The notes under the pieces are model-generated. The model did not search any database, had not been told where the DNA came from, and was given only the letters and a program-made list of their open reading frames with translations. The translations under genes and the position numbers were made by a program. This document shows positions 7,444 through 59,385 of a DNA stretch of 64,000 bases, in pieces. Position 1 is the stretch's first letter. Every line of letters starts with the position of its first letter. The DNA lies in the NCBI GenBank assembly GCA_037200925.1, contig JBBCGO010000001.1, positions 179,822 to 243,821 on the forward strand, in the 5' to 3' direction. The stretch comes from Candidatus Doudnabacteria bacterium (GTDB lineage: Bacteria; Patescibacteriota; Doudnabacteria; UBA920; O2-02-FULL-48-8).

Positions 7444-7725
7444 ATGGCCAGTAAAGCCCCCGCCGGCCCCCTCGATAATTTCTGCCGGAAGTTGGCGGCG
7501 GCAGAAGGAAGCAAATCCACTCCCGAGAAATACCGTCAGGCTCTCGACGATATATTCGACGCTGCGGGACGCGATCCGCAGATCGAATTGGTGGTCATGC
7601 TCCGCAAAGGAAATGATGTCACTCTTCTGGGGGTAAAAAAGGGTGAGGTAATCGCCAACGACAGCAGCGAATTCAGGAAGATCCTTCGGCCGATCCTTAC
7701 CCGGCTCATCGACGAGACCTTCTGA
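7444..7725 (+). CDS. Hypothetical small protein (93 aa) encoded antisense inside the ATP synthase operon
   Basis: ORF 7378..7725. Internal ATG at 7444 preceded by GGAGGT with 6-nt spacing; possible TTGCGG-N16-TAATAT promoter upstream; GC ~53% against ~45% locally; terminator follows. No family recognised. Confidence 0.5.
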   Translation: MASKAPAGPLDNFCRKLAAAEGSKSTPEKYRQALDDIFDAAGRDPQIELVVMLRKGNDVTLLGVKKGEVIANDSSEFRKILRPILTRLIDETF

Positions 7726-7729
7726 CCTT

Positions 7730-7786
7730 AGGGCGCGGTTCGATTTTGGCTTTCAAAGCCATCAATCCTCTGCGCCTATTTTTTTA
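7730..7786 (+). terminator. Rho-independent terminator after the antisense small gene
   Basis: gggcgcgg...ggctttcaaagcc...ctgcgcc hairpin followed by tattttttt. Confidence 0.5.
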
Positions 7787-7795
7787 CAAAAGAAC

Positions 7796-8665
7796 TCACT
7801 CTTCCATCGCCAATTTAGCTGCGGAGATCTCAGATAATTCTCTTGTAATCCCCGCCTGTCTGGCCTGGTTAAAACTTAACGACAGATCTTCGATGAGATC
7901 CGCGGCCGCATCATTGGCGTTGCGCATGGCCACCATGCGGGCGGAATGTTCGGAAGCAGCCGCCTCAACCAGTGTCTGGTAAACCGCAAATTCTACGGTC
8001 CTGGTTATCAAACTTTCCAGCACTTCAGCAGGACTCGGCTCAAACAGCAGATCCTGCTTTATCTCCTCCCCTTCGGATGAAAACGGCAAAAGCTGGAGAA
8101 TATTCGGGCGCTGAACCAGAGTTGAAACGAAATCCGTATAGATTATGAAAACTTTTTCGTATTTGAACGCCAAAAAATCCTGGATGGCGATCTGCGCGAT
8201 GGCCTTTGAATCAGTGAAGCTGACCTTGTCTTTGGCCGGGAACGCGGCCACGATATTGTGCCCTGACCTTCTGATCGCATCCGCGCCTTTTTTGCCGATC
8301 GTGATAAAATCGAATTTTTCGGAACCGTTCTCTTTCAAAAGATCTAAAGCTTTACCGATGACATTGGCATTGAACGCTCCCGCCAGACCGCGGTCTGAGG
8401 AAACCAGAATGGCCAGGATCTTTTGGACCGGGATTTTTTGATCATCAGGCAAAACGCGGTTGATCAGCGGATTGCTGCTCAGATCGGATTTTGCCGCCAG
8501 ATTTTTCAAAAGCTGGGACGACAAAGTCGCATACGGACGGGAAGAAGTGGCCGCAACCTGTGCTTTGCGCATTTTGGCGGCCGATACTAATTCCATAGCT
8601 TTGGTTATCTGGCCGATGCTGGTGACGGATTTTATCCGGCGTTTGATCTCCTTGGAATTAGCCAT
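7796..8665 (-). CDS. atpG: F1 ATP synthase gamma subunit
   Basis: 289 aa; [36 protein letters not shown] is the canonical gamma N-terminus. Confidence 0.9.
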
Positions 8666-10151
8666 AAGATTTTTTAAACTCCTCGATCGCTTTCTTTAAT
8701 TGCGTTTCGCTCTTTTCATTCAATTCCTTTTCAGTGGCAATTGATCGAAGCAGATCTTTTTTCTGGATATCCAGGAATTTGTGGAAATTAGTTTCCCAAT
8801 CTTTGACCTTATCAACAGGGACGTCATCCAAAAGGCCGTTAACACCGGCATAAAGAACGGCTACCTGATGTTCCACCGGCATTGGCTGGTACTGATCTTG
8901 TTTCAAAATTTCGGTCATGCGCAATCCGAGCTCAATGCGGGCCCTGGTCTGCGGGTCCAGGTCCGAGGCAAATTGCGCAAAAGCCGCAAATGCACGGTAT
9001 TGGGCCAGATCCAGGCGAAGTTTGCCTGCGACTTTTTTGATCGCCTTGATCTGTGCGGCCGATCCTACACGTGAGACCGACAAGCCTACGTTTACCGCAG
9101 GCCTGATGCCCTGGTAAAACAGGTCGGTTTCCAGATAGATCTGGCCGTCGGTGATCGAAATGACGTTTGTGGGAATGTATGCTGACATATCCCCGGCCTG
9201 TGTTTCAATGATCGGCAAAGCCGTGAGTGAGCCGCCGCCTTTGGCCTTGCTCATTTTGGCCGCGCGCTCAAGAAGGCGCGAATGCAGATAGAAAACATCG
9301 CCGGGATATGCTTCGCGGCCCGGAGGGCGGCGGAGCAACAGAGAAATCTCGCGGTAAGCCACGGCATGCTTGGACAGGTCATCGTAAATTATCAGGGCAT
9401 GTTTGCCCTGATCCATGAAGTATTCGCCCATAGCACAGCCCGCAAACGGCGCGATGTACGAGAGAGCCGCGGGGTCAGAAGCGCCGGCCAGCACAATTAT
9501 CGTGTGTTTGAGAGCATCGTGCTTTTCAAGTTCCGCCATGATCCTTGCAACTTTTGATTCCTTCTGCCCGATGGCAACATAAATGCAGATGACATCATTG
9601 CCTTTTTGGTTGATGATGGTGTCAATCGCGATGGCGGTCTTTCCGGTTTGCCTATCGCCAATTATCAATTCTCTTTGTCCTTTGCCGATGGGGATCATGG
9701 CATCGATCGCTTTAATGCCGGTCTGCAACGGCTCATTGACCGATTGTCTTTCAATAACCCCAGGCGCGATCTTCTCCACAGGATAGCGCTTATCGGCTTT
9801 TATCCCGCCTTTATTGTCCAAAGGCTCGCCCAGAGGATTCACAACGCGCCCAACCAAGGCCTCGCCCACAGGTACTGACAGGAGTTTGCCCGTGGCAGTG
9901 ACCTTATCCCCTTGCTTGATGCTCGTGTCTGAACCAAGCAAGATCACGCCGATCGAATCCTGATCCAGGTTCAGGGCAACTCCGACAATACCTCCGGGAA
10001 ACTCCAGCATTTCGGAGGCCTTAACGTTTGAAAGGCCCGCGACCTTGGCGATACCGTCACCGACGCTTAAAACAGTGCCTACTGTTTCCAGTTTGGCATT
10101 GGTCTGAAAATCTTCTATCCGGTTTTTAAGTTGTGCGATGATGTCGGGCAT
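8658..10151 (-). CDS. atpA: F1 ATP synthase alpha subunit
   Basis: 497 aa; GDRQTGKT Walker A; alpha-type N-terminal barrel. Confidence 0.95.
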
Positions 10152-10152
10152 A

Positions 10153-10551
10153 TTATTTGTTTAATTCATTCTTTAATTGTTCTAAATTATTTTTCACCGA
10201 AGCGTCGATCATTTTGTCGTCAAATTTTATGACCACGCCGCCTACCAACTGCTCATCCACCTTCTTTTTTAATTCGTAATGCCCTTTAGCGAGTTTGTTC
10301 AGTTCATCCAAGATCTGCTCTTCGTTTTCTTTGTTCAAAGGTTTAGCGCTGGTCACGTCCACTTCTTTGATCCCTTTTTTTGCCAGTTCCAGTTTATGAA
10401 ACTCCGAAGCAATGTCATCAAACATCCTTAAATCATTGTTTTCCGACATGGCAGCGACGAAATTATCGAGAATTATATCTATGTGCTTGGGATCTGTGTC
10501 TTCCAATGATTCAAATAAAGCTTCGGCGTATTGCTTGGCTGTAAATTTCAT
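10153..10551 (-). CDS. atpH: F1 ATP synthase delta (OSCP) subunit, short form
   Basis: 132 aa between atpF and atpA; C-terminal [26 protein letters not shown] is delta-like. Shorter than the typical ~180 aa. Confidence 0.7.
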
Positions 10552-11147: not shown

Positions 11148-11435
<288 letters not shown>

Positions 11436-25797: not shown

Positions 25798-25862
25798 TTT
25801 GTGTTTCTAAATATCAAATTAGCTCATCAATTATACCACAAACTGTCAGTATTGACAAAATC

Positions 25863-25891
25863 ACAAAAAAGGAGTAAAATTATAAATTAGT
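25863..25891 (+). promoter_or_regulatory. Near-consensus sigma70 promoter (TTGACA-N17-TAAAAT) for the small GC-rich gene
   Basis: ttgacaaaatcacaaaaaaggagtaaaat. Followed by GGAGGAGGAGG and a GTG start at 25924. Confidence 0.6.
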
Positions 25892-25923: not shown

Positions 25924-26271
25924 GTGCGAAACCTTGTATTGGTTTCTCTGACAGTTCTGGTTGTGTCGTCGTTCTTCACGGCACTGTTTTCTCGCAAGAG
26001 GACAGAAGAAAGCAATTGGGCTTCGATCGTGTTCTGCGCCGACCTGTTCTTCGCCTTCGTTGGCATGATCATCGTTGGCTGGGCCAACGCTGCGGCGACA
26101 AACCAGTTCGCGAAGTACCAGGAAGGTTTCCCCGACGTGGACATGGGCGGCCTTCCAGTCGACGTCATCATCGGCAACATGCTGATCTTCTGTACTCCTC
26201 TGATCATATGGGGACTCGGCCGGCTCATAGGCGGCAGATTGAGACGCTCGCCGAGAACGATTACGATCTAG
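25924..26271 (+). CDS. Hypothetical small membrane protein (115 aa, ~3 TM), GC-rich
   Basis: GTG start with a strong Shine-Dalgarno site. GC ~55% with GC3-rich codons against the ~45% background. Own promoter and terminator. Confidence 0.55.
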   Translation: MRNLVLVSLTVLVVSSFFTALFSRKRTEESNWASIVFCADLFFAFVGMIIVGWANAAATNQFAKYQEGFPDVDMGGLPVDVIIGNMLIFCTPLIIWGLGRLIGGRLRRSPRTITI

Positions 26272-26312
26272 ACAAGCCTATCGACTGACCGCTCGGCCGC
26301 AACCTAGCACAA

Positions 26313-26348
26313 CCCGACGACATCTTGTCGCCGGGTTTTTCTTTTTGT
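26313..26348 (+). terminator. Rho-independent terminator
   Basis: cccgacgacatcttgtcgccggg hairpin followed by tttttctttttg. Confidence 0.6.
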
Positions 26349-28344: not shown

Positions 28345-28415
28345 ATATTATTACTTTTCGGATTTTTTGGCAAAAAAAATGACCACTTTTCTGGCCGAAA
28401 AATGGTCAAACACGG

Positions 28416-28835
28416 TTAAGCCTCCTGACGCTCTTGCTTCCCGGCAGTCTCCCGCTCTTCTTCGCAGTCCACACATCGAACGGCGAATGGTAATGCACGA
28501 AGACGCTTCTCCTCGATTTCTTCTCCGCACTCCAGACAGTAACCGTAAGCATCTTTCTCGAGCCTGGCAATCGCTTCATCGATCTTGGCCAGCGTTTCCG
28601 TTTTCTGCTGAACAAGCGCGAACTCGAGCTCTTCGGCCATGTTATCTGACGCTGCGTCGAAGTTATCGGCGGACTTTGCGCCGCCTTGTTCTATTCGGCC
28701 GCGCCGCTGTGCTCCGACTATCAGTTGCAGCTCGTCACGGCGGCCGGTGAGGATCTTCCGAAGTTCTTCTTGTCGAGTCGAAAGTCCCTTTGGTTGAGTC
28801 CGCGGTATTTCCTTTGCCTTAGGATGCTTTGCCAT
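28416..28835 (-). CDS. DksA/TraR-family C4 zinc-finger protein
   Basis: Coiled-coil region then CLECGEEI...CVDCEE four-Cys finger. GC ~54%. SD GAGGTGAT. Confidence 0.75.
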   Translation of the reverse strand: MAKHPKAKEIPRTQPKGLSTRQEELRKILTGRRDELQLIVGAQRRGRIEQGGAKSADNFDAASDNMAEELEFALVQQKTETLAKIDEAIARLEKDAYGYCLECGEEIEEKRLRALPFAVRCVDCEEERETAGKQERQEA

Positions 28836-28841
28836 ATCACC

Positions 28842-29264
28842 TCATTCCGGTCTTGGCCTGAACAACGGCAGATCGCGTGAGACATAGCCTTCGTGCAACT
28901 GCCGGGCCAGTCTCTGGGCCAGCTTCTTTTGCTCCAGCAGATGACAGGCACCGCATCGTTTGAGCAAAGGCTGCACGGCCAGGTCTTCCAGACGCAGTTC
29001 TAACAGATGGCATTTTTTGCACTTGCCGTACTTACCGGTCTGCAGGTCGCCCTGCGCTTTTACCAGCTCTGCCAGCTTGCCGGCAAGTGCGGTGAGTAAG
29101 GCCCGGCGCCCCTCCGGTTTTGAAGCGTAAGGGTTTTGACCCTGCTCAATCAGCCAAATTTCCCGTTCGGTATCTGCAACGGCCTGGTGGAGTATTATGC
29201 ACAAGGCCTTGAAACGGCGCTCCTCCATAGGCGGAGGAAACGCAAAACAACCTGCTATTTGCAT
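28842..29264 (-). CDS. Hypothetical zinc-ribbon protein with duplicated C-x2-C-H-L-L-E motifs
   Basis: Start reset to MQIAGCF at 29264, preceded by GGGAGGA; the ORF-track listing runs to 29321 from an upstream start. CKKCHLLE...CGACHLLE. GC-rich. 6 nt upstream of the dksA-like gene, so a likely operon. Confidence 0.5.
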   Translation of the reverse strand: MQIAGCFAFPPPMEERRFKALCIILHQAVADTEREIWLIEQGQNPYASKPEGRRALLTALAGKLAELVKAQGDLQTGKYGKCKKCHLLELRLEDLAVQPLLKRCGACHLLEQKKLAQRLARQLHEGYVSRDLPLFRPRPE

Positions 29265-29292: not shown

Positions 29293-29321
29293 ATTATATA
29301 TATTAAAACCGAGCATTGCAA
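29293..29321 (-). promoter_or_regulatory. Near-consensus sigma70 promoter (TTGCAA-N17-TATAAT) for the zinc-ribbon / DksA-like pair
   Basis: Minus strand: ttgcaatgctcggttttaatatatataat, ~25 nt upstream of the SD/ATG. Confidence 0.55.
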
Positions 29322-41234: not shown

Positions 41235-42638
41235 ATGCTCAAGCTTTATAACTCGCTGACCCGCAAAATTGAAGAATTCAAGCCTATCAAAGCTGATGAG
41301 GTCGGTTTTTATATTTGCGGCCCTACGGTTTACGACAATGCGCACATCGGCAACCTGCGGACCATGATCATGGGTGATCTCATGCGCCGGACTTTGGAAT
41401 ACAACGGATTCCGGGTCAATCAGGTCATGAATATTACGGATGTAGGCCACCTGACGTCTGACGGAGATGTCGGCGAGGATAAAATGGAAAAAAACGCCAA
41501 AAACCTGGAAGAATATTTGGCCGTTGCACAAAAATACACAGACAGCTTTTTAAGCGACTTAAAAGCGCTTAATATTGAACTGCCGTCTGTGATGCCTAAG
41601 GCTTCGGAGCACGTCAATGAGCAGATCGGCATGATCAAAACCTTGATCGAAAAAGGATTTGCATACGAATCAGATGAAGCAGTTTACTTTGATGTTTCCA
41701 AATTCCCCGCTTACAACAAGCTCACCGGCCAGAAACTTGTTGATATGAAACTTGGGGCTCGGCAGGATGTGGTAATGGACATGAAGAAAAAAAATCCTTA
41801 CGATTTTGTTCTTTGGTTCAAGACCATTGGCCGGTACGCCAGCCATATCATGCGCTGGGATTCTCCGTGGGGCGAAGGGTTTCCCGGCTGGCACATTGAA
41901 TGCTCCGCCATGAGCAAAAAATATCTGGGCGACCGCTTTGATATCCATGCCGCGGGCATTGACCTGAAGTTCCCCCACAATACGAATGAGATCGCGCAGT
42001 CAGAAAGCGCCAACGGCAAGCCTTATGTAAATTATTGGGTCCACGGCGAACACTTGCTTTTCGACAAAGCCAAAATGGCCAAGTCTGAAGGCAAAGCTTT
42101 AACTTTGCAAAACCTTATTGACAAAGGATTCAATCCACTGGCTTTCCGCTATCTGGTTTTGACCGCCCATTACCGCTCCAAACTGAATTTCACCTGGGAT
42201 AGCCTGCAGGGAGCCCAGAATGCTCTAAATCATCTCTACGAAGAGGTTTCGGCTTTTGACGCGCCGGAAAATGAAATTGAAGAATTTGAGCAGACATTTC
42301 TGGAAACCGTCAATAATGATCTGGATACCCCGCAGGCTATTGCAGTGATGCAGGATCTGATCAAAGCCGAACAGCCAAGTTCCGCCAAACTCGCCACCCT
42401 GATCAAATTTGATAAAATTTTCGGACTTAAGATCAAGGAGGTATGGCAAACGGCAAAAGTCATCCCGGAAAACGTGCGCAAATTGATTGATGAACGGGAA
42501 CAAGCGCGTAAAGCAAAAGATTTCAAAAAATCCGATGAGCTCCGCCACGCGATCGAATCCGAAGGCTTCGTTGTTGAAGATACGATCGACGGGTTTAGAA
42601 TCAAAAAAAGTTTTGAGACCAAAAAAAAGACGGATTGA
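41235..42638 (+). CDS. cysS: Cysteinyl-tRNA synthetase
   Basis: HIGN (HIGH-type) and KMAKS (KMSKS) class I motifs; CysRS zinc-binding context. Confidence 0.95.
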
Positions 42639-42664
42639 CATTGAAATTCAATTCGTCCCGTACG

Positions 42665-42859
42665 TTACATCCCTCTGTTCGTACCGTAGGTTATAGTCCT
42701 CTGTGAAGTCAGCCTTCGCAGGGTTTTGATTTTTCTCTCGCAGACTTCGCAAACCATGAGATGCAAAGCCGTGGATTGGCGCTCCTGTTCGCCCATCACG
42801 TCGCGGACCAGCCGGCCGAGGTCCTCATCGCTCGGGCATCCCTTGCCGTCGTATGGCAT
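42665..42859 (-). CDS. Small zinc-finger protein with a ZAS-like H-x3-C-x2-C motif (candidate anti-sigma-like)
   Basis: 64 aa; GKGCP...ALHLMVCEVCERK. GC-rich patch. Confidence 0.45.
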   Translation of the reverse strand: MPYDGKGCPSDEDLGRLVRDVMGEQERQSTALHLMVCEVCERKIKTLRRLTSQRTITYGTNRGM

Positions 42860-42868
42860 AGGTTCTCC

Positions 42869-43282
42869 TTAATTGGATTTCTGCCGCTGCGGTTTGTAAT
42901 TGCGCAGATCAATGATCTTGAGTCCCGGACCCATTGTCCGCAACTCACGAACAAGCTTTTCAGCCATCTCTAGAGTGAAGTGAATTTCGTCCGGGTTGGT
43001 ATTCTGATTCGGCATTTGCGCTCGCGCCATATTCCACTTGATCACCAACTGCCTGGTCGCTTCATCCACATCCTCATCCCGAAGCGGCAATCCTGACTGC
43101 TTGATCTGGCGGAAGAGCTCATGGGCGTCCGTGGATTTGAGCGTGTCCTGCTGGATGCCAACCTCGACCATATAACGGCCGTAGACCTGAGACCAGACCT
43201 CACACGAATAGAATCCATCAGCGCCCACGATCCGGCCATGCTTGCGGCAAGTATTGCAGAGCTCAAATTTTGGCCCTGTCAT
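42869..43282 (-). CDS. Hypothetical protein with N-terminal C-x2-C...C cluster (137 aa)
   Basis: CNTCRKHG...YSC; GC ~52%; SD GAGGAGGAA; own consensus promoter. Confidence 0.5.
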   Translation of the reverse strand: MTGPKFELCNTCRKHGRIVGADGFYSCEVWSQVYGRYMVEVGIQQDTLKSTDAHELFRQIKQSGLPLRDEDVDEATRQLVIKWNMARAQMPNQNTNPDEIHFTLEMAEKLVRELRTMGPGLKIIDLRNYKPQRQKSN

Positions 43283-43318: not shown

Positions 43319-43348
43319 ATTTTAGACAAAATTAAATTGATTTGTCAA
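43319..43348 (-). promoter_or_regulatory. Near-consensus sigma70 promoter (TTGACA-N18-TAAAAT) for the 137-aa gene
   Basis: Minus strand ttgacaaatcaatttaattttgtctaaaat; its -35 overlaps the divergent plus-strand -35. Confidence 0.55.
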
Positions 43349-43370
43349 AGCTGAAACTTGGGCTTATAAT
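43342..43370 (+). promoter_or_regulatory. Near-consensus sigma70 promoter (TTGTCA-N17-TATAAT) facing dnaB
   Basis: ttgtcaaagctgaaacttgggcttataat. Confidence 0.55.
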
Positions 43371-44951: not shown

Positions 44952-45167
44952 ATGTTCTTAGGACTTTTTTTGGTGATTTTGGGGGCGCTTTTGCTCTTCA
45001 AAAACCTGGGTCTGATCGTTTTGCCAGCCTCAGTTTGGTCTATTCTTTACCCTGTCATCCTGATCGTGCTGGGGCTTTGGCTCATTTCCATAGTCCAGCG
45101 GGGCCGCGCTTACAAGCACTGGATGATGAACCGCTACTGGGGACGCCGGGACGACGAAGAACAATAA
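44952..45167 (+). CDS. Hypothetical small membrane protein (71 aa, 2 TM)
   Basis: Two hydrophobic helices then a basic/acidic tail. Confidence 0.45.
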   Translation: MFLGLFLVILGALLLFKNLGLIVLPASVWSILYPVILIVLGLWLISIVQRGRAYKHWMMNRYWGRRDDEEQ

Positions 45168-45201
45168 AAAAAGCCGTGCTTGGAAATAATTTCCATACGA
45201 C

Positions 45202-45429
45202 TTAATTGCCAACCCCCTCCTCGCCCAGATAGCCGTCCGGATACGGAGAGTCATCCTCTTGTTCCATCATCCTGAGACGCTCCTGTTCATAGTCGTTCAA
45301 GCGGCAACCGAACAGGCTTCGCGAAGGTCTGCCCTTTAACGACTTGGCGGGTTTTGAACTCGCTATCCTCTGATGCTTTCGGTTTTTCCCCGAATTGATC
45401 TTCGTGCCGTTCGGCCGTTTCTTGCCCAT
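45202..45429 (-). CDS. Possible small basic/acidic protein (76 aa) overlapping the upstream ORF
   Basis: MGKKRPNG... preceded by GGAGGG (short spacing). Overlaps the 108-aa ORF by ~38 nt in another frame. Uncertain. Confidence 0.25.
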   Translation of the reverse strand: MGKKRPNGTKINSGKNRKHQRIASSKPAKSLKGRPSRSLFGCRLNDYEQERLRMMEQEDDSPYPDGYLGEEGVGN

Positions 45430-45466
45430 CGACCCTCCATGGGTTTCTTTTTCAAAAAACCAGTGT

Positions 45467-45793
45467 CTAGTTGAATTGCGGGCCGGGGAATAAAGCACGC
45501 GTACCGAAGCGAGATGAAGCAGCGACTGGCTGCCGGAGAATCTCCCGGAGCCCTTCTTGGAGATCACAAACTACCAATGGCTGAATACCGAAAATGAAAA
45601 GGGCTTTGACCAGAAAATCCACATCGCCGTCGTCATAAACGATGACATCGTCGAACGGCCGATCTTCGCCGGCCTCGGTCGACAGCGTAGCGATGACATC
45701 CTCACGGGGTACCCACCAAAGCTTGATTTTAGCAGGGTTAACTATCGGAAGCTGTTGAAGCTGCCTGACCTGGCAAACGATCAGAATCTTCAT
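45467..45793 (-). CDS. Hypothetical protein (108 aa) in a GC-rich patch
   Basis: ATG preceded by AAGGAGGAG; MKILIVCQ...DDVIVYDDGDVDF; family not recognised (weak PIN-like impression only). Confidence 0.4.
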   Translation of the reverse strand: MKILIVCQVRQLQQLPIVNPAKIKLWWVPREDVIATLSTEAGEDRPFDDVIVYDDGDVDFLVKALFIFGIQPLVVCDLQEGLREILRQPVAASSRFGTRALFPGPQFN

Positions 45794-48155: not shown

Positions 48156-48259
48156 ATGAGGACATATTAGCATATTTTGGCAGGAAAAATGAAACAATTT
48201 AACGCCTGCATTCGTTATATATTTACAAACCCAGAAAGCTGCTGTATACTCAAAAAAGC

Positions 48260-48844
48260 ATGAATATCCTAAAAGAACCAACACAAAATCCGACTGACGA
48301 ACATTTGGTGGAAAATTACCTGAACGGCGACTCGCATGCCCTGGATCTCCTGATCCAGAAATATCTGAGCCAGACGTATAATTTTGTTTTCAAATATGTC
48401 CATACGACGCAGGACGCCGAAGACGTGACCCAGGAGGCCTTTGTTAAGGCCTGGAAAAAAATAGATACTTTCAAACGCCAGTATAAATTTAAAACCTGGC
48501 TGTTTACGATCGCCAAAAACACGGCGCTCGACCATCTGAAAAAACGGGGCCTTGTTCCGTTCTCCGCTCTCAATGGTGAAAATGAAGGAGAGGCTTTTGA
48601 GCAAAGTTTGGTGTCTTACGAAACACTGCCGGACGAAGCTTTGGCCAAGATCCAGGATGCGAAAATAATAGGCCACGCAGTCGATAAATTGCCGGATATT
48701 TACCGCCAGGTCATCACACTTTATTACGACGATCAGCTGAACTTTCGGGAGATCGCCGGCCTGCTGAAACAATCCATCAATACAATAAAAACCCGCCATC
48801 GCCGGGCTCTGGCCTATTTGAGGCGCGATTTGCCCAAAAATTGA
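48260..48844 (+). CDS. ECF-subfamily RNA polymerase sigma-70 factor
   Basis: Region 2 (DVTQEAFVKAWKKIDTF...WLFTIAKNTALD) and region 4 HTH (NFREIAGLLKQSINTIKTR). Confidence 0.85.
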   Translation: MNILKEPTQNPTDEHLVENYLNGDSHALDLLIQKYLSQTYNFVFKYVHTTQDAEDVTQEAFVKAWKKIDTFKRQYKFKTWLFTIAKNTALDHLKKRGLVPFSALNGENEGEAFEQSLVSYETLPDEALAKIQDAKIIGHAVDKLPDIYRQVITLYYDDQLNFREIAGLLKQSINTIKTRHRRALAYLRRDLPKN

Positions 48845-51435: not shown

Positions 51436-52151
51436 TCGAATGCCATCATATCAATAAATCCTATTTCAACGGCGATGTCGAGACTAAAGTTTTAAAAGAC
51501 GTAACCTTCACGATCAAAGACGGCGAATTCGTGGCGATCATGGGCCCGTCGGGATCCGGCAAATCCACTCTGATGCACATCATTGGAGCGCTGGATACGC
51601 CCACGCACGGAAAATATATCCTGGACGGCAAGGACGTCTCGACTCTGTCTGACGACGAACTGGCCGCCATCCGCCGGCAAAAAATAGGTTTTGTATTCCA
51701 GTCGTTCAACCTGCTTCCCCGCGCCACCGTGCTCCGCAATGTGGCTCTGCCTTTGGTTTACGCCGAGATCGATAAAACGAACCGCGATGAACTGGCCAAA
51801 AAAGCCTCTTTACAGGCGGGTCTGGATGAATCGCGGTTTTATCATTTATCAAACCAGCTCTCCGGCGGACAGATGCAAAGGGTGGCCATTGCAAGGGCTC
51901 TTGTAAATAACCCTTCGCTTCTTCTGGCCGATGAACCGACGGGCAATTTGGATACCAAGACCGGCGACATCGTGCTTCACACATTTCAAAAGTTGAACGA
52001 GCAAGGCCATACGATCGTACTGATTACTCACGAACCTTACGTGGCCGAACACGCATCACGCATCATTCATATCCGTGACGGCGAGATTTTGAAAGACGAA
52101 ACTAATCTGAACCGCAGAATAGTAGATACCAACAAGATCCATGAAGACTAG
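51432..52151 (+). CDS. ABC transporter ATP-binding protein (MacB/LolD-type)
   Basis: [35 protein letters not shown]. Confidence 0.9.
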
Positions 52152-53379
52152 AGATCTATTTGATGAAAGCTACAGCGCCTTGACGGTCAACAAGGTCAGG
52201 TCCAGCCTGACCATGCTTGGAATTATTATCGGCATCGGCTCCGTGATAGCGTTGATCTCAATCGGCCAAGGTGCCGCGGGGTCGATCCAGGCCAACATCC
52301 AGTCCATCGGCTCAAATCTGATCATAGTCACGCCGGGCGCTCCCAGAGGAGCAGGAGCCGCCGTATCCACTGGCCGCGGCAGCGCCGAGACCCTGACCAT
52401 GGATGACGAACTCTATCTGCAGAGCAACCTGACTGATGCTAAAGCCGTGGAACCGGAACTGTCGAAACGCTACCAGGTAACGGCCAAAGGCACCAATACC
52501 AATACCCAGGTCGTCGGCACCAGCAGCAATTATACTACTGTGCGAAATGTGAATATTGATGGCGGGTCATTTATTACTGACCAACAAGTTACAAATTTGG
52601 CCAAAGTCGCGGTCTTGGGTCCCACGACCCGGGACGATCTGTTCGGCGTTGGAGCTGATGCCGTGGGCCAGACCATCCGGATAAATTCCGTTGTTTTCAA
52701 TGTCATCGGAGTTACCGCAAGCAAGGGCGGCAGCGGATTTTTTAACCAGGATGATATTATTTTCATTCCGATATCAGTTGCCCAGCATTACCTGGTCGGG
52801 CCCAATGCGGACGGAAAAGATTATGTCACTACCATTGGTATCTCGGCTCAGAGCCCTGACGTCATGACCACGGTACAGCAGGAAACAACTGACGATTTGC
52901 TTTCCCTCCACCAGATCGGCAATCCGGCCCAGGCTGATTTCCAGGTCCAGAACCAGGCTGACATTGTCTCGGCCGCATCCTCGGTCACCGGCACGTTTAC
53001 GATCCTTTTAGCTTCCATTGCCGGCATTTCCCTGGTTGTCGGCGGCATCGGCATCATGAACATGATGCTGACGACCGTGACTGAGCGGACGCGGGAGATC
53101 GGCCTGCGCAAAGCAATCGGCGCAACCCGTCAGGATATCAATCTGCAATTCCTGATGGAAGCGATCATGCTGACTTTTTTGGGCGGTTTGATCGGCGTGG
53201 TCGCCGGCTGGCTGGCCTCGATCGCTGCGACCCACTTTGCCGGCATCCCCTCCAAGATCACCTCGTCATCGGTTCTGCTGGCTTTCGGCGTCTCGGCTGC
53301 AATTGGCGTGGTCTTCGGCTACTACCCGGCGCAAAAAGCTTCAAAGCTGAACCCAATTGAAGCTTTAAGATTTGAATAA
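52141..53379 (+). CDS. ABC transporter permease, MacB/FtsX family
   Basis: 412 aa; paralog of 29701..30933. Confidence 0.85.
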   Translation: MKTRDLFDESYSALTVNKVRSSLTMLGIIIGIGSVIALISIGQGAAGSIQANIQSIGSNLIIVTPGAPRGAGAAVSTGRGSAETLTMDDELYLQSNLTDAKAVEPELSKRYQVTAKGTNTNTQVVGTSSNYTTVRNVNIDGGSFITDQQVTNLAKVAVLGPTTRDDLFGVGADAVGQTIRINSVVFNVIGVTASKGGSGFFNQDDIIFIPISVAQHYLVGPNADGKDYVTTIGISAQSPDVMTTVQQETTDDLLSLHQIGNPAQADFQVQNQADIVSAASSVTGTFTILLASIAGISLVVGGIGIMNMMLTTVTERTREIGLRKAIGATRQDINLQFLMEAIMLTFLGGLIGVVAGWLASIAATHFAGIPSKITSSSVLLAFGVSAAIGVVFGYYPAQKASKLNPIEALRFE

Positions 53380-53407: not shown

Positions 53408-53851
53408 ATGGACAAAAAACATACTATTACTGTGGTCGCGGTCGCAATCGTGTTCGCAGCAGGAGGATTTTTTGGAGGAATGAAGTATGCTCAAGGTAAA
53501 ACGGCGCAAATGCGCCAACAGCGCGTTGCCGGAGCCGGGTTTGGGGCAGGCGGTGGAGCCCGGGGTGCGCGGGGCGGAGCCGGCGGAACGGCAGGCGGAG
53601 GATTTACGGGCGGTCAGATAGTTTCCAAAGATGACAAAAGCATCACTATAAAGACCATGGACGGCGGGTCAAAGATCGTTTTCCTGGGAGCTTCAACCCA
53701 GATCGCCAAATCAGCTTCCGGCACGCCGGATGATCTGACCCAGGGCGAAAACGTGGTTGTCACAGGCACAGCCAACTCCGACGGAAGCCTCACCGCTCAG
53801 ATGATCCAGATCCGGCCGGCAATGACAACTCAACCGGCACCGGCTCAGTAA
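53408..53851 (+). CDS. Small membrane-anchored beta-rich protein, paralog B
   Basis: TM, Gly/Ala/Arg-rich spacer, then QIVSKDDKSITIKTMDG...NVVVTGTANSDGSLTAQMIQI, aligning with paralog A. Confidence 0.5.
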   Translation: MDKKHTITVVAVAIVFAAGGFFGGMKYAQGKTAQMRQQRVAGAGFGAGGGARGARGGAGGTAGGGFTGGQIVSKDDKSITIKTMDGGSKIVFLGASTQIAKSASGTPDDLTQGENVVVTGTANSDGSLTAQMIQIRPAMTTQPAPAQ

Positions 53852-55586: not shown

Positions 55587-55903
55587 AGGCACCTGAATTA
55601 AATTATTTTCACTCCCCGCCCAAGCTTCAGGCTGTAGCGGGGATTTTATTTAAAAGAAAAAGCTCCAAATTACAGGAGCTTTGTAAGCCAGATTTTTAGC
55701 CAGAGTGTCAGTCTGTACAAGTACGCGTACTTGAGAATATCTAACAGTAAGTACGTCAAAATGATTATTCTCAAGGTCCGCTTACTTGCAAACAGAGACA
55801 ATTTGTGAGTAGTCAACCAGGTGCGGACCCCGGTTTCAAAACTAAGGAAGGAATTCCTGAACCGCAGTATCACGAATTTCCTCCTCGCAACATAGGACGA
55901 GAG

Positions 55904-56134
55904 TTACTTCACACCGTGGATATCACGCGCATAATGCGCCCGGCAATCGACTTCGGCGAGCCGCCCTGCCGCGTGTTTGGCCGCCTCGGTCAAAATGGCA
56001 CGGGCTTCAGCGTCAGTGCGGGAGTATAGGACCTGCGGGTCGTGTCCGTGTTCGACCAGAAACGCCTCAATCAAGGAACGCTCAAGCACAGCGCTCGGGT
56101 GTTCAAGCGGCCGGACATCGGGATCAATTTTCAC
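55904..56134 (-). CDS. Hypothetical small protein (76 aa), GC-rich, strong SD
   Basis: AAGGAGG-TTTT-GTG start; GC ~58%; lies between the rplU terminator and a palindrome-rich 218-bp region. Confidence 0.5.
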   Translation of the reverse strand: MKIDPDVRPLEHPSAVLERSLIEAFLVEHGHDPQVLYSRTDAEARAILTEAAKHAAGRLAEVDCRAHYARDIHGVK

Positions 56135-56587: not shown

Positions 56588-58198
56588 CTACGGCCCGACT
56601 TCCCTGATGATCGGGGTCTTGCCTGTGGAGGAATTGACAATGATGTTCGGGGCTGAGCCTGAGAAGCTTTTGGCTGAAGAATCAGTGTAATGGATGGTAA
56701 AGGTATTGGTCACCACTTCCTGGATATCGGCGGATGCGGTGCTGACATTGGCATCATAGGTAATGATCCAGTTATTGGTCACATCCTTGTTGCCTGAGAT
56801 GTTAAACAGGTAATTACCGGAGCAGGTAGGGCTGTTGGCTGTCAGTCCCCCATTAACAGAGCCCGGGCCTGTAACCGTCAGGTTCCTAAGATTGGTCAGG
56901 TTGGAAGAGACAGTGTCGCAGATGTAGTTGACCGTGGCTGCAGAAGGGCCGGAATTGACCAGGGTGATCTGGTAGGTCAGGGTATCCCCGTTATTGACTG
57001 AAGTGCTGGGACTATAGGGGTTGCCGTTGACCTTACTGACAAACTTCGTTGTATTGGCAAAGTTGGCAGAACAGACAACGTTCATGATGCTCTTCTCGTT
57101 TGACTGGCTGTTGCCCCCGGCATTGAAGGCCTGGACCACATAGAAATAGGTCACTCCGGTGGAAGGAGGGGTATCCAGGTAAGTGCCAAAGGTGCCTGTG
57201 CCGCTCTGGGCAGGCAGGTTGCCTGAGATATTGGCATACCCTGAGCCTGATGTGGTTGATCGCAGGACTATGAAGCCGGTTTCATTGCCGGAGTTATCAG
57301 TCCAGGTTACTTTCAGCTTAGAACAGGGCACCGAAGCATCGGTATTGATATTATCCACTTTGGTCAGGGTCGGGGCTGTGGGAGCTACTACATATGCTGC
57401 CTGGGAGTAGTAGGTTGCCTGACTATAATAGGTTGCTTGAGAGTAGTATGCTGATTGGGCGTAGTAGGCTGACTGACTATAGTATGCCGATTGACTGTAG
57501 TAGGATGATTGGGAATAGTATGCTGCCTGGGAATAGCACGCAGGAAGACCGCTACAGTTCGAATTGACTGTACAGTTTGTGGTATTGCCGATGGTGCATT
57601 CGCTGCCAGCCGGAATACAACCGCATGACCCGCTCCAGCGATAGTATTGCGGTTCGGAGTATGGAGTCGCATAGTATGACGATTGGGAATAGTAGGAGGA
57701 TTGGGAGTAATAAGAAGCTTGACTATAACAACTAAAAAAACAGGAACTGCTTGCGCTTATGCTCCCATTCCATTGAACTGTGTTAAGTGCGGGAGAAAAA
57801 AATTGAATCGTATCAAAATTAGCATTTCCCGGTACGCCCATGCTATTGGCATAGAATCCGCGATTATTCCACTGATCCACCTGACACCATGTTTGATAGT
57901 CCCCTGTAGTCTCACCAACGTATTCTGCCCAGGCGCAAACCGTAAAATAACCTTGACCTTGAGCCCCGCCGCTGACAGAATAACTCACTGAGCCGCTGCC
58001 CGGATTAATATGATTGGGAAAGCCCGGTTGATAGTAATCAGGGCCACACGTGACAAAACTGCTTCCGGTATTGGAACAAGAGAATGCCTGGGCTTTATGA
58101 AAGTATGCAAAACAGCTTCCTGCCAAAAGAAGCAGAAACAATAATAATATAGATTTATTGTTCGGGTAGGAATCCCGAAGGAAATTCCAAAGACGCAT
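56588..58198 (-). CDS. Secreted/surface protein with tandem YYSQ(S/A) repeats, an FN3-like domain and a DUF11-like C-terminal domain
   Basis: Signal peptide (LLLFLLLLAGSCFAYFHKAQA); about 12 tandem 5-aa YYSQS/YYSQA units encoded by 15-bp repeats; TWTDNSGNETGFIVLRS FN3-like; C-terminal LTYQITLVNSGPSAATVNY. Start at 58198 or 58216. Confidence 0.6.
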   Translation of the reverse strand: MRLWNFLRDSYPNNKSILLLFLLLLAGSCFAYFHKAQAFSCSNTGSSFVTCGPDYYQPGFPNHINPGSGSVSYSVSGGAQGQGYFTVCAWAEYVGETTGDYQTWCQVDQWNNRGFYANSMGVPGNANFDTIQFFSPALNTVQWNGSISASSSCFFSCYSQASYYSQSSYYSQSSYYATPYSEPQYYRWSGSCGCIPAGSECTIGNTTNCTVNSNCSGLPACYSQAAYYSQSSYYSQSAYYSQSAYYAQSAYYSQATYYSQATYYSQAAYVVAPTAPTLTKVDNINTDASVPCSKLKVTWTDNSGNETGFIVLRSTTSGSGYANISGNLPAQSGTGTFGTYLDTPPSTGVTYFYVVQAFNAGGNSQSNEKSIMNVVCSANFANTTKFVSKVNGNPYSPSTSVNNGDTLTYQITLVNSGPSAATVNYICDTVSSNLTNLRNLTVTGPGSVNGGLTANSPTCSGNYLFNISGNKDVTNNWIITYDANVSTASADIQEVVTNTFTIHYTDSSAKSFSGSAPNIIVNSSTGKTPIIREVGP

Positions 58199-58637
58199 AG
58201 TTGATGTCCGTGGCAACTGCCTTATTTGTGTTAAACAGATCTTCTTTGGTTTGGATCTTCATTATTCTGGTTCCGGCTTTCAGGTCCGACATCGAACCTG
58301 CTACAACTTTTGTCTCAGGATAAAACCCGACACCGGATTTTACATCAGCAGGAGCGATCAGTGCGATCTTCTCAATTGTGGTCTGTGGGCTTATGGAGAA
58401 TTGAATGACCCTGCTATCCGTCCGATCATCTCCGGGCTTGGTTGACCGGATCGATCCTTTAACAGTGATCAAACTGCCTTCTACTTTCTGGATATCACCT
58501 GACATCAGATAATCATCAGTTGCGGTGATTGGTGTTTGCTGAACCGCGATTTGTTTTAAACGATCCTTTAAAAATAAAACGAATAACAATAGTACGATAA
58601 GTAAAACTACTAATATTCTCAAAGCTTTTTTATTCAT
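58155..58637 (-). CDS. Hypothetical membrane-anchored protein (160 aa), distant relative of paralogs A/B
   Basis: N-terminal TM; GDIQKVEGSLITVKGSIRST...TRIMKIQTKED resembles the 49266/53408 family. 3' end overlaps the next gene by ~44 nt. Confidence 0.45.
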   Translation of the reverse strand: MNKKALRILVVLLIVLLLFVLFLKDRLKQIAVQQTPITATDDYLMSGDIQKVEGSLITVKGSIRSTKPGDDRTDSRVIQFSISPQTTIEKIALIAPADVKSGVGFYPETKVVAGSMSDLKAGTRIMKIQTKEDLFNTNKAVATDINYASLEFPSGFLPEQ

Positions 58638-58683
58638 ATTCCTTATGCTCTTGTATGGTAGACTATAACATGAAAACCTGTTT

Positions 58684-58719
58684 TAAGACAAAGAAAAAGG
58701 CTGGCTCAAGTTGAGTCAG
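58684..58719 (-). terminator. Rho-independent terminator after the GC-rich lipoprotein gene
   Basis: Minus strand ggctgactcaac-ttgagccagcc followed by tttttctttgtctt. Confidence 0.55.
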
Positions 58720-58730
58720 CCAAAAGCGCA

Positions 58731-59273
58731 TTACTGCGGCCTCTGCCAGCCGATCTGTTCGTCATTCACGATCGCCGGGTCCGCCGTCGGTCTCGGTGTG
58801 CCTGGACCAAGAAACGGATCGTTTCCGGGCTTGAGCCATACTGAATAGCGAAAGTACGGCAAATTCGGCGTCGCTGCATTGACCGTACCGTTTGCCCCGC
58901 CCATACCCAAGGTGTAGGCACATTGGTTCGTGCCTCCCTCTGTGCCAGTGCCTATTGCGCCGGCAATCGGGGGCGTGTCGGGACCGTTAGTGAAGGCGGT
59001 CAGAATGAGAAATCGGTAGCCGTCCGGGGCGCTGCATCGAAGCTCAATGTCATAGGGTTGGCCCATGACAAGCTGAGCGTACCTGCCCGGATTGATGGCG
59101 GAGATCCACCAGTAGAACGTCTGTGTGGTTCCCGGGATCGGAACCGAGTGAGCATCAGCAGGGGGCGGGGTTTGTGTGGACGGACTCGTCGGCGACGAGT
59201 GGTTGCAGGCGCCGGTCATCGGAAGACCAGCGCATACAAGTGCCGCTGCGAAAAGACGCAGGGTGTTGCGCAT
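58731..59273 (-). CDS. Secreted protein / putative lipoprotein (180 aa), ~60% GC
   Basis: Signal peptide with Cys (LVCAGLPMTGAC); Pro/Gly/Thr-rich; strongest compositional outlier in the window; GGGGAGGA SD. Confidence 0.55.
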   Translation of the reverse strand: MRNTLRLFAAALVCAGLPMTGACNHSSPTSPSTQTPPPADAHSVPIPGTTQTFYWWISAINPGRYAQLVMGQPYDIELRCSAPDGYRFLILTAFTNGPDTPPIAGAIGTGTEGGTNQCAYTLGMGGANGTVNAATPNLPYFRYSVWLKPGNDPFLGPGTPRPTADPAIVNDEQIGWQRPQ

Positions 59274-59356
59274 GTTGTCCTCCCCTTTTTGTTATCAATT
59301 ACCGGCCTTTTAAGGGCCTATTGGTTCACGTTCCGTTACCACTATGGTAACTCAAG

Positions 59357-59385
59357 ATTTTACTATTTAACAATGCGTTTGTCAA
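59357..59385 (-). promoter_or_regulatory. Consensus sigma70 promoter (TTGACA-N17-TAAAAT) for the GC-rich lipoprotein gene
   Basis: Minus strand ttgacaaacgcattgttaaatagtaaaat; 5' UTR has two small hairpins before the SD. Confidence 0.55.

What the first reader, a model, noticed from the sequence alone, without database searches (positions are those of the whole stretch)
7444..59385. Dispersed class of GC-rich small genes, several with a near-consensus sigma70 promoter and most with a strong Shine-Dalgarno site
At least seven loci stand out at 52-60% GC against a ~45% background: 7444-7725, 25924-26271, 28416-29264, 42665-43282, 45202-45793, 55904-56134 and 58731-59273. They encode small proteins (membrane, zinc-finger/DksA-like, lipoprotein, unknown). 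Most have strong SD sites (GGAGG cores). Where checked, several also have near-perfect -35/-10 promoters with 17-18 nt spacers: 25863-25891, 29293-29321, 43319-43348 and 59357-59385. One sits antisense inside the ATP synthase operon. Several have private terminators. The combination of foreign-looking composition with native AT-rich strong expression signals is unusual. It may mark a mobile or recently acquired gene class (moron-like cargo) or a functionally related stress regulon.
Basis: seen in the sequence. Interest (0 to 1): 0.55.

Follow-up and report, generated by a model that had tools for sequence, protein, structure and literature searches.

The report
Small GC-rich inserted accessory genes
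In this tiny-genome (CPR/Parcubacteria-type) bacterium, about eight unrelated small genes sit as self-contained units between conserved housekeeping genes; they are GC-rich and are almost the only genes here with a strong ribosome-binding site, which marks them as a separate accessory layer and not one mobile element.

Summary
The seven loci are 52-60% GC, although the background is 48.2%, not 45%. Each has a strong Shine-Dalgarno (SD) site and its own terminator, and four have near-consensus promoters.

- **SD contrast:** ordinary genes in this window have no SD signal above chance (mean -2.2 kcal/mol against -2.5 at random ATGs). The candidates average -10.5.
- **Inserted position:** the candidates checked (D, E, F, G) sit inside a gene order (cysS-dnaB-recR-rplU-DUF192-GT4) that is conserved in about 65 related metagenomic loci, where these slots are usually empty or hold other genes.

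Homologues in other CPR genomes are also GC-rich and mostly SD-led, whatever their location. One family (F) also occurs in 68%-GC non-CPR soil bacteria.

The genes are not related to each other, apart from the DksA-like pair. They share no flank motif and have no phage, plasmid or defence-system matches. About two thirds of the extra GC comes from amino-acid composition. The promoters are ordinary for this genome.

Best reading: a fast-evolving, patchily distributed layer of accessory genes built like phage morons, acquired at various times and dependent on SD-led translation in an SD-poor genome. A stress regulon is untested.

The parts
7326..7359 (+). Candidate promoter of unit A. Either TTGACA-17-TAATTT or TTGATT-16-TATCAT (9/12), so it is weak. 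It overlaps the atpD start codon on the other strand.
7444..7725 (+). Gene A, 93 aa, 55.7% GC. Its SD is GGAGG at 7434-7438 (-10.5 kcal/mol). It is convergent with atpG and lies between atpG and atpD. The predicted fold is alpha-alpha-beta3-alpha with no PDB analogue.
7731..7787 (+). Intrinsic terminator of A: a compound hairpin (-23.6 kcal/mol) followed by T7. It has no T-run in the atpG direction.
25852..25880 (+). Promoter of B, TTGACA-17-TAAAAT (11/12).
25924..26271 (+). Gene B, 115 aa, a membrane protein at 54.6% GC with a GTG start. Its SD is GGAAGGAGGAGGAG (-12.3 kcal/mol). It is antisense to the flanking mraY-like and dacB-like genes.
26311..26348 (+). Terminator of B: hairpin plus T5CT5.
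29293..29321 (-). Promoter of unit C, TTGCAA-17-TATAAT (10/12).
28842..29264 (-). Gene C2, 140 aa, with a CxxC...CxxC pattern. It is a weak paralogue of C1 (E = 4e-4). SD is GGGGAGGAA (-11.0 kcal/mol).
28416..28835 (-). Gene C1, 139 aa, a DksA/TraR-type C4 zinc-finger protein. PF01258 scores 47.4 bits against a cutoff of 24.9. SD is -6.6 kcal/mol.
28372..28408 (-). Terminator of unit C: 12-bp stem plus T8.
43319..43348 (-). Promoter of unit D, TTGACA-18-TAAAAT (11/12). It is divergent from, and overlaps, the dnaB promoter at 43342-43370.
42869..43282 (-). Gene D2, 137 aa, from a family with an FxxCxxCGKHGRI motif. SD is GAGGAGGAA (-11.5 kcal/mol). It is antisense to the flanking cysS and dnaB.
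42665..42859 (-). Gene D1, 64 aa, with an HxxxCxxC motif like zinc-binding anti-sigma factors. The HMM match is weak (E = 0.0077). It evolves fast (39% identity to the L006 orthologue).
42619..42659 (-). Terminator of unit D. Its T8 run is encoded by the C-terminal Lys codons of cysS.
45467..45793 (-). Gene E2, 108 aa. SD is AAAAGGAGGAG (-11.8 kcal/mol). It lies 34 nt downstream of the zwf-gnd fusion gene, and no promoter of its own was found.
45202..45429 (-). Gene E1, 75 aa, using the start at 45429. SD is GGAGGG (-9.8 kcal/mol). No homologue was found beyond itself.
45166..45201 (-). Terminator of unit E: hairpin plus T7.
55904..56134 (-). Gene F, 76 aa, 59.7% GC, with a GTG start. SD is AAGGAGG (-12.0 kcal/mol). 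It is predicted as a three-helix protein. The family is large (about 75 clusters) and includes members in GC-rich non-CPR bacteria.
55670..55873 (-). Gene F2, 67 aa, a hydrophobic protein at 42.6% GC. SD is GAGGAGGAA (-11.6 kcal/mol). It is co-transcribed with F.
55650..55682 (-). Terminator of unit F: 8-bp stem plus T5CT4.
59357..59385 (-). Promoter of G, TTGACA-17-TAAAAT (11/12).
58731..59273 (-). Gene G, 180 aa, a predicted lipoprotein at 60.4% GC. SD is GGGGAGGAC (-11.1 kcal/mol). It is the first gene of a conserved module, G-p160-p542.
58690..58721 (-). Terminator after G: hairpin plus T5CT3.
487..1122 (-). Additional member H, 211 aa, a truncated PurH-like protein (MGS domain plus the start of AICARFT_IMPCHas). 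It is about 57% GC with SD AAGGAGGAG (-11.2 kcal/mol). It sits next to tRNA-Arg and has a terminator at 442-464.

Best explanation
The loci are about eight independent and mutually unrelated expression units. Each has a sigma70-type promoter where one is needed, a strong SD, one or two small ORFs, and an intrinsic terminator. They were inserted, at different times, between genes of a conserved Parcubacteria-type (CPR) backbone.

They form an accessory layer rather than a single element. Their small protein families evolve fast, are patchily distributed among CPR genomes, and in at least one case (F) are shared with GC-rich non-CPR bacteria.

Backbone genes in this genome start translation without an SD, from AT-rich and weakly structured start regions. 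The inserted genes have GC-rich coding sequence. About two thirds of the excess comes from Gly/Ala/Arg/Pro-rich protein composition and about one third from synonymous codon choice. Their start regions are more structured, and they are translated through a strong SD that selection keeps in orthologues.

**Shown:** composition, SD contrast, unit architecture, insertion into the backbone, conservation of both features across genomes, and purifying selection on the proteins.

**Inferred:** horizontal origin for most units, a working anti-SD in this organism, and SD dependence as the reason the motif is kept.
For: **Source and reality of the sequence.** The window is part of a 964-kb contig of GCA_037975565.1. 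The same genes appear in an independent Logan assembly of the same sample, which argues against assembly chimeras.

**SD contrast.** Ordinary genes average -2.2 kcal/mol and random ATG contexts -2.5 (p = 0.87). All 10 candidates are <= -6.6, and 7 of 10 are <= -10, a level reached by 1.1% of random sites.

**Start regions.** The -30..+40 region folds at -15.2 kcal/mol in candidates against -8.0 in ordinary genes. The first 45 nt are 54% GC against 39%.

**Backbone and insertion.**
- The order dnaB > recR > rplU > DUF192 > GT4 is conserved in about 65 loci.
- Median gaps there are 74 bp (recR-rplU) and 52 bp (rplU-DUF192). In the window they are 1174 bp and 2906 bp, and hold F/F2 and G.
- The cysS-dnaB slot differs among relatives with 82-92% identical DnaB. 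It is empty in L018, holds AT-rich genes in L014, L020 and L022, and holds GC-rich SD-led genes in L016, L019 and L006.
- The atpG-atpD gap is 44 nt in a Nomurabacteria genome and 464 nt here.

**Same signature elsewhere.** Homologues of A, B, D2/D1, E2, F and G in other contigs are 5-22 GC points above their locus. Most have SD energies of -9.4 to -12.4, while their neighbours are at about 0. Across 665 ORFs in 65 related loci, strong SD occurs in 6 of 19 genes with GC excess above 0.09, against 41 of 646 others (p = 0.0012).

**Real proteins.** Each of A, B, D2, E2, F and G has a conserved family, and pN is well below pS.

**Outside link.** F homologues occur in Vicinamibacterales and in a 67.8%-GC contig carrying exosortase genes, where they match the local GC and lack a strong SD.

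**Literature.** The anti-SD motif was detected in only 48% of Parcubacteria 16S genes (PMC9297842). Horizontal transfer is frequent in Patescibacteria and mostly occurs within the phylum (PMC12455944).
Against: - No donor or transfer mechanism has been identified. There are no integrases, repeats or shared border motifs.
- G sits in a three-gene module (G-p160-p542) that is conserved in a distant Parcubacteria contig at another location. Only G is GC-rich and SD-led there, which points to gene-specific selection rather than foreign origin.
- D2's non-synonymous divergence from its L006 orthologue equals that of the neighbouring cysS, which fits plain vertical descent in that pair.
- The link between a structured start and the need for an SD holds in the window but not across 587 ORFs of related loci (p = 0.62 and 0.22).
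- One A homologue (L011) has no strong SD.
- The 16S rRNA 3' end of this genome was not available, so whether the SD works is inferred only from its conservation and from a modest excess of SDs among backbone genes (7 of 59 at <= -8 against 3.2% expected, p = 0.003).
- Start codons of ordinary genes were assigned by rule, not by a trained gene finder.
Confidence: 0.6

Rival explanations
1. Native lineage genes with no horizontal origin. The proteins are intrinsically rich in Gly/Ala/Arg/Pro, and may be highly expressed. This makes the DNA GC-rich, and a strong SD is selected for each gene individually. On this view the class is a by-product of protein composition and expression level.
For: - About two thirds of the GC excess comes from amino-acid composition (+0.052 against +0.024 synonymous).
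- The families themselves have high GARP/FYMINK ratios.
- Within the conserved G-p160-p542 module, only G has the signature, in two distant genomes.
- Synonymous sites are near saturation for most pairs, and some relatives keep synteny.
- The non-CPR F homologue lacks a strong SD, so the SD arose or was kept within CPR.
Against: - The genes occupy slots that are empty or differently filled in close relatives.
- Homologues of A and B sit in unrelated contexts in other genomes.
- The A homologue in a 41%-GC Nomurabacteria locus has GC3 of 0.78 against about 0.35 for its neighbours. That is hard to maintain without recent transfer or strong synonymous selection.
- The F family is mostly found in GC-rich non-CPR organisms.
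Confidence: 0.2
2. A coordinated regulon of small regulatory or stress proteins. It would include two DksA-like proteins, an anti-sigma-like zinc protein, a lipoprotein and membrane proteins. The shared strong SD and strong promoter would give burst expression under one condition.
For: - C1 is a DksA/TraR-family protein and C2 a weak paralogue.
- D1 carries an HxxxCxxC motif.
- F-family domains occur fused to Usp-like (by sequence inspection) and GGDEF (motif seen in the sequence) domains in other organisms.
- All units share the same expression design.
Against: - No shared operator or motif was found upstream, apart from generic promoter hexamers and the SD.
- Promoters are no better than at ordinary operon heads.
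- The members differ between close relatives, which is not expected for a conserved regulon.
- Most members have no assignable function.
Confidence: 0.1
3. Cargo of one mobile system, such as phage morons, integron-like cassettes or a miniature element, recently delivered to several sites.
For: - The units have moron-like architecture and composition that contrasts with the flanks.
- The slots are variable among relatives.
Against: - tblastn found no phage or plasmid match. No IMG/VR relatives were found for A, D2 or G.
- The only PHROG match is the generic DksA-like family, and there is no meaningful defence-system match.
- There is no common border sequence, no att-like repeat, and no integrase in the window.
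- Neighbours are housekeeping genes.
- Synonymous divergence from orthologues is high.
Confidence: 0.07
4. No class at all: the upper tail of normal GC variation, picked out after the fact.
For: - The GC contrast is modest (+4 to +12 points).
- Some ordinary genes are just as GC-rich: atpD 53%, the gene at 52141-53379 54%, and the gene at 53408-53851 57%.
Against: - SD strength is tightly associated with GC rank among small genes (p = 4e-4).
- The same signature recurs in homologues from other genomes.
Confidence: 0.03

Closest known systems
Phage 'morons' (autonomous extra genes between conserved phage genes; concept from lambdoid phage genomics, from my own knowledge)
   Same: - Each unit is self-contained with a promoter, ORF(s) and terminator.
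- Each is inserted between backbone genes and differs from them in nucleotide composition.
- Presence varies among relatives.
   Different: - The host here is a bacterial chromosome of housekeeping genes, not a prophage.
- No phage homology was found.
- The distinguishing mark is also translational: SD-led genes against an SD-less backbone.
Horizontally transferred genes and genomic islands in Patescibacteria (PMC12455944)
   Same: - These are accessory genes with atypical composition in streamlined CPR genomes.
- Transfers are mostly within the phylum, with occasional outside partners.
   Different: - These are single-gene or two-gene islets of 0.3-0.9 kb, well below typical island size.
- They lack mobile-element genes.
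- The SD dichotomy was not mentioned in the passages of that paper that I read.
SD-poor translation initiation (anti-SD motif undetected in about half of Parcubacteria 16S genes, PMC9297842; low SD use in Bacteroidetes and others, from my own knowledge)
   Same: Most genes lack an SD and have AT-rich, weakly structured start regions.
   Different: In this window nearly all genes with a near-perfect SD are small GC-rich accessory genes, not, for example, ribosomal protein genes (rplU scores -2.3 kcal/mol).
DksA/TraR C4 zinc-finger family (PF01258). This applies to C1 only, with C2 as a distant relative.
   Same: C1 has the C4 zinc finger plus an N-terminal helical region. It matches PF01258 above the cutoff and TIGR02420 at E = 1e-19.
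   Different: - It scores below the equivalog cutoffs (70.7 bits against 115.5).
- It is duplicated in tandem with a very divergent copy.
- RNA polymerase binding is not tested.

Membership tests
Phage moron | Lies within a phage or prophage genome | tested here: not met
   The flanks are atp, mur, dnaB, cysS, rplU and recR genes. No phage DNA or protein matches were found.
Phage moron | Autonomous unit with its own promoter and terminator, inserted between backbone genes | tested here: met
   All units have a terminator. B, C, D and G have promoters matching at least 10 of 12 positions. Insertion into the backbone is shown. E and F lack a recognisable promoter of their own.
Phage moron | Nucleotide composition distinct from neighbours | tested here: met
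   52-60% GC against 48.2%. Homologues are 5-22 points above their loci.
Integron gene cassette | attC-like recombination site at the cassette border, and an integrase nearby | tested here: not met
   No shared flank sequence beyond the SD, promoter hexamers and T-runs. No integrase-like ORF was seen in the window (by inspection).
Horizontally acquired genomic islet | Patchy presence among close relatives at an otherwise conserved locus | tested here: met
   The cysS-dnaB, recR-rplU and rplU-DUF192 slots vary among relatives.
Horizontally acquired genomic islet | An identified donor lineage, or a gene tree that conflicts with the species tree | tested here: inconclusive
   Only F has clear non-CPR, GC-rich homologues. 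No trees were built. G, A and B homologues whose source could be read are CPR or CPR-like.
DksA/TraR family (C1) | C4 zinc finger matching PF01258 above the gathering score | tested here: met
   47.4 bits against a cutoff of 24.9.
DksA/TraR family (C1) | Equivalog-level match to DksA (TIGR02420 / NF033459) | tested here: not met
   70.7 bits against 115.5, and 65.5 against 105. C1 is a family member but not a demonstrated DksA orthologue.
Zinc-binding anti-sigma factor (D1) | HxxxCxxC motif and an HMM match above the cutoff | tested here: inconclusive
   The motif HLMVCEVC is present. NF052368 scores 16 bits against a cutoff of 50.
Zinc-binding anti-sigma factor (D1) | A co-transcribed sigma factor partner | tested here: not met
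   The upstream gene D2 has no sigma-factor domain and no Pfam or NCBIfam hit.
Toxin-antitoxin pair (two-gene units C, D, E, F) | At least one partner matching a known toxin or antitoxin family | tested here: not met
   No Pfam, NCBIfam or PADLOC toxin or antitoxin hits.
SD-dependent translation initiation | A GGAGG-type motif 4-9 nt upstream of the start, conserved in orthologues | tested here: met
SD-dependent translation initiation | A complementary anti-SD (CCUCC) at the 16S rRNA 3' end of this organism | not testable with these tools
   No 16S gene is present in the window or in any fetched locus.

The most novel reading that the evidence does not exclude
In SD-poor Parcubacteria, the SD/anti-SD interaction may survive mainly as a dedicated translation channel for a fast-turning-over layer of small accessory proteins. 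That would be a two-tier initiation system separating the core proteome from the accessory one.

Such a system could let the cell tune the whole accessory layer at once, for example through anti-SD accessibility or ribosome heterogeneity. It would also make 'strong SD plus GC-rich ORF' a sequence-only marker of accessory or acquired genes across the CPR.

A narrower possibility concerns family A. Members were found beside or inside the ATP synthase operon in two of the three genomes examined, so it might be a CPR-specific ATP-synthase-associated factor.
Probability: 0.2. Interest if true: 0.75.

Novelty: new variant of a known kind. Interest (0 to 1): 0.5.

Why it matters
CPR/Patescibacteria make up a large share of bacterial diversity. 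They are mostly uncultured, and a large share of their genes are small proteins of unknown function.

If SD-led, GC-rich small units reliably mark the accessory or acquired layer of these genomes, there are three consequences:
- There would be a simple sequence-only way to separate core genes from accessory genes in metagenome-assembled genomes.
- It would show that the anti-SD is still in use in lineages where most genes have dropped the SD.
- It would give a short list of candidate host-interaction or regulatory proteins (DksA-like, anti-sigma-like, lipoprotein) for experiments.

It also bears on gene calling. Gene finders trained on the SD-less majority may mis-start or miss these genes.

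Tried and rejected
- **Paralogy.** All-against-all BLASTP of the 11 proteins found only C1-C2 related.
- **Shared border or upstream motifs.** Only the SD, promoter hexamers and T-runs are shared.
- **Phage, plasmid or defence origin.** tblastn against the phage and plasmid collections found nothing. PHROGs matched only the DksA-like family. PADLOC gave nothing meaningful. IMG/VR scans for A, G and D2 found nothing. A BFVD fold search for A found nothing.
- **Structured RNA instead of protein.** Rfam matched only 7 tRNAs, none overlapping the loci. pN is well below pS.
- **ATP-synthase linkage of family A.** It holds in the window and in a Nomurabacteria genome but not in a third context (L011). 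It is kept only as a low-probability lead.
- **'GC-rich start needs an SD' as a general rule.** It is supported in the window but not across 587 ORFs of related loci.
- **Technical dead ends.**
  - The genome-contig scan with the family-A alignment returned one locus.
  - A concatenated query returned nothing in the search for homologous proteins.
  - The afdb50 library was unavailable.
  - Alignments A1 and A3 were too divergent for locus scans.
  - No paper mentions the source sequencing run.

Full report
**Source of the window.** An exact protein look-up places the window on a 964-kb contig (JBBCBH010000057.1) of assembly GCA_037975565.1. The same genes occur on separate contigs of an independent Logan assembly of run SRR28211699, so the GC-rich segments are not assembly chimeras. 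The gene content is typical of a reduced CPR/Parcubacteria-type genome: an ATP synthase operon, mur/ftsW genes, lepA, dnaB, cysS, recR, rplU, MacB-type transporters and 7 tRNAs. Named homologues come from Candidatus Nomurabacteria and a 'Parcubacteria group bacterium'.

**Checking the observation.**
- Window GC is 48.2%, not ~45%. The seven intervals are 52.4-60.4% GC, roughly the 90th to above the 99th percentile of same-size windows.
- I resolved them into ten ORFs (A, B, C2-C1, D2-D1, E2-E1, F, G), plus an AT-rich partner F2 and an eighth locus H at 487-1122.
- Every ORF has a GGAGG-type motif 4-7 nt before its start.
- Three of the four stated promoters are exact and one is 11 nt off.
- Every unit ends in a hairpin followed by a T-run.
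- Gene A lies between atpG and atpD on the opposite strand.
- GC1, GC2 and GC3 are all raised: 0.604/0.425/0.639 against 0.518/0.354/0.556.
- Near-consensus promoters are not special to the class. Of nine sites matching at least 11 of 12 positions in 60 kb, three serve candidates and most of the others serve ordinary operon heads (trxA, dnaB, mraY-like, marR-like and others). At the 10-of-12 level the count is 4 of 6 candidate heads against 7 of 23 ordinary heads, p = 0.16.

**The distinctive feature is the Shine-Dalgarno site.**
- Anti-SD duplex energies of ordinary genes average -2.2 kcal/mol. This is indistinguishable from the region upstream of random ATGs in the window (-2.5; p = 0.87).
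- The candidates average -10.5. Seven of ten are <= -10, a level reached by 1.1% of random sites.
- If ordinary genes are given the best SD among all starts in their first 30 codons, they still reach only -4.4.
- Ranking genes under 200 aa by GC alone, 9 of the 11 with GC >= 52% have SD <= -8, against 4 of 24 below that GC (p = 4e-4).
- A modest SD excess among backbone genes (7 of 59 at <= -8 against 3.2% expected, p = 0.003) suggests the anti-SD still works.
- The literature reports that the anti-SD motif was detected in only 48% of Parcubacteria 16S genes (PMC9297842). The 16S of this genome could not be reached.
- In the window, ordinary genes start with AT-rich (39% GC), weakly folded regions (-8.0 kcal/mol). 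The candidates start with 54% GC and -15.2 kcal/mol.

**The candidates are real, unrelated protein genes.**
- An exhaustive profile-free search with the concatenated proteins found small families for A (15 clusters), B (4), D2 (24), E2 (3), F (about 75) and G (26). D1, E1 and F2 matched only themselves.
- Only C1 and C2 resemble each other.
- C1 is a DksA/TraR zinc-finger protein. D1 has an HxxxCxxC motif with a weak anti-sigma match. The rest have no family assignment.
- Orthologue pairs show pN well below pS, for example D2 at 0.17 against 0.64, but non-synonymous rates 2-8 times those of neighbouring backbone genes.
- AlphaFold2 models of A and F are confident but have no informative PDB or viral analogues.

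**The candidates are insertions into a conserved backbone.**
- A DnaB-anchored scan of metagenomes returned 80 loci with 58-97% DnaB identity.
- Across them the order (cysS) > dnaB > recR > rplU > DUF192 > GT4 is conserved. Median gaps are 74 bp (recR-rplU) and 52 bp (rplU-DUF192).
- In the window those gaps are 1174 bp (p181, F2, F) and 2906 bp (p542, p160, G). The dnaB-recR gap has grown to 9.5 kb and includes E1/E2.
- The cysS-dnaB slot differs among the closest relatives. It is empty in L018, holds AT-rich genes in L014, L020 and L022, and holds GC-rich SD-led genes in L016, L019 and L006. D2 is recognisable only in L006 (75% identity) and L019 (45%).
- atpG and atpD are 44 nt apart in a Nomurabacteria genome and 464 nt apart here. 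A's insertion leaves atpD with a plausible extended -10 of its own.

**The signature travels with the gene.** Homologues in other contigs are GC-rich relative to their locus and mostly SD-led, while their neighbours have essentially no SD.

| Homologue | Locus | Gene GC vs locus GC | SD (kcal/mol) |
|---|---|---|---|
| A | L010, Nomurabacteria | 62% vs 41% (GC3 0.78 vs about 0.35) | -5.9 |
| B | L096, between grpE and rpsI | 57% vs 48% | -11.8 |
| D2 / D1 | L006 | 54.6% / 53.6% vs 45.6% | -10.8 / -11.1 |
| E2 | L009 | 51% vs 50% | -11.8 |
| F | L008 | 61% vs 50.5% | -12.4 |
| G | L005 | 58.6% vs 48.9% | -9.4 |
| G | L097 | 55.4% vs 45.5% | -11.9 |

L010 also holds a second, unrelated GC-rich zinc-ribbon gene with SD -11.0. 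One A homologue (L011) lacks a strong SD. Across 665 ORFs in 65 related loci, strong SDs are 7.1% overall (interior control 1.8%) but 6 of 19 among genes more than 9 GC points above their locus (p = 0.0012).

**Origin.** Family F is mostly found in GC-rich organisms.
- One member is annotated from Vicinamibacterales.
- Another lies, as a tandem pair, in a 67.8%-GC contig with exosortase genes. There it matches local composition and has no strong SD.

This links at least one unit to transfer between phyla. It also shows that the SD is a feature gained or kept inside CPR. Against a purely foreign origin:
- Two thirds of the GC excess is amino-acid composition (+0.052 against +0.024 synonymous, though all ten synonymous parts are positive).
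- D2 diverges like its neighbour cysS.
- G belongs to a module G-p160-p542 that is conserved in a distant Parcubacteria contig at another location, and only G carries the signature there.

No phage, plasmid, defence-system or recombination-site evidence was found. Horizontal transfer, mostly within the phylum, is already documented for Patescibacteria (PMC12455944).

**Verdict.** It describes a set of stand-alone, moron-like units carrying small, fast-evolving accessory proteins. They sit in variable slots of a conserved, SD-poor backbone and are marked by GC-rich coding sequence and a strong, conserved SD. It is not one mobile element and not phage cargo. A regulon remains possible but is unsupported. 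The proposed mechanistic link, that GC-rich structured starts need an SD, fits the window but did not generalise in a noisier test on related loci. Checking the 16S anti-SD and running a whole-genome test of core against accessory genes are the decisive next steps.

Noticed in passing
window 45828-48284 (-): A single ORF fuses glucose-6-phosphate dehydrogenase (PF00479/PF02781) with 6-phosphogluconate dehydrogenase (PF03446/PF00393). The fusion region is also conserved (84% identity) in contig L009.
   Followed up: partly
window 56588-59273 (-); L097 8001-10887: A three-gene module is conserved at a different genomic place in a distant Parcubacteria contig. It consists of lipoprotein G, a membrane-anchored 160-aa protein, and a 516-542-aa secreted protein with SYYSQ(S/A) tandem repeats (PKD domains in the L097 counterpart). 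Only G is GC-rich and SD-led.
   Followed up: partly
window 7332-7443 and 7726-7795: Gene A splits the ATP synthase operon. atpD has a plausible extended -10 of its own (TGATAAAAT) about 25 nt upstream of its GTG start. A's terminator works in one direction only, so atpG read-through would run antisense across A.
   Followed up: partly
L010 7974-8240 (Nomurabacteria) and L011 6001-6255: Family A homologues lie immediately upstream of the atp operon in a Nomurabacteria genome, but next to a TrmB-like regulator in another contig. Two of three contexts are therefore atp-linked. The predicted fold (alpha-alpha-beta3-alpha) has no PDB analogue.
   Followed up: partly
window 42619-42723: cysS and D1 are convergent with interleaved terminators. 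The T8 run of D1's terminator is encoded by the C-terminal Lys codons of cysS. The cysS terminator hairpin (42699-42723) lies inside the D1 ORF.
   Followed up: no
window 43319-43370: Two divergent, overlapping near-consensus promoters (11/12 each) share a palindromic TTGACAAA/TTTGTCAA core. One serves D2 and the other dnaB.
   Followed up: no
window 27308-27337: A perfect 12/12 sigma70 consensus promoter (TTGACA-18-TATAAT) lies upstream of thioredoxin.
   Followed up: no
L014-L093 (metagenomic loci): The gene order cysS-dnaB-recR-rplU-DUF192-GT4 is conserved across loci whose DnaB identity runs from 97% down to 58%. It makes a convenient scaffold for mapping gene gain and loss in this CPR clade.
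   Followed up: yes
L010 583-927: A GC-rich (59% against 41%) SD-led small gene in a Nomurabacteria genome. Its product ends in a CxxCG...CxxCG zinc ribbon. It has its own promoter-like site and a downstream T-rich stretch, and it is unrelated to any window candidate.
   Followed up: partly
window 487-1122 (-): A truncated PurH-like gene (MGS domain plus only the first ~60 residues of AICARFT/IMPCHase). It is 57% GC with a strong SD and lies directly downstream of tRNA-Arg(CCG).
   Followed up: partly
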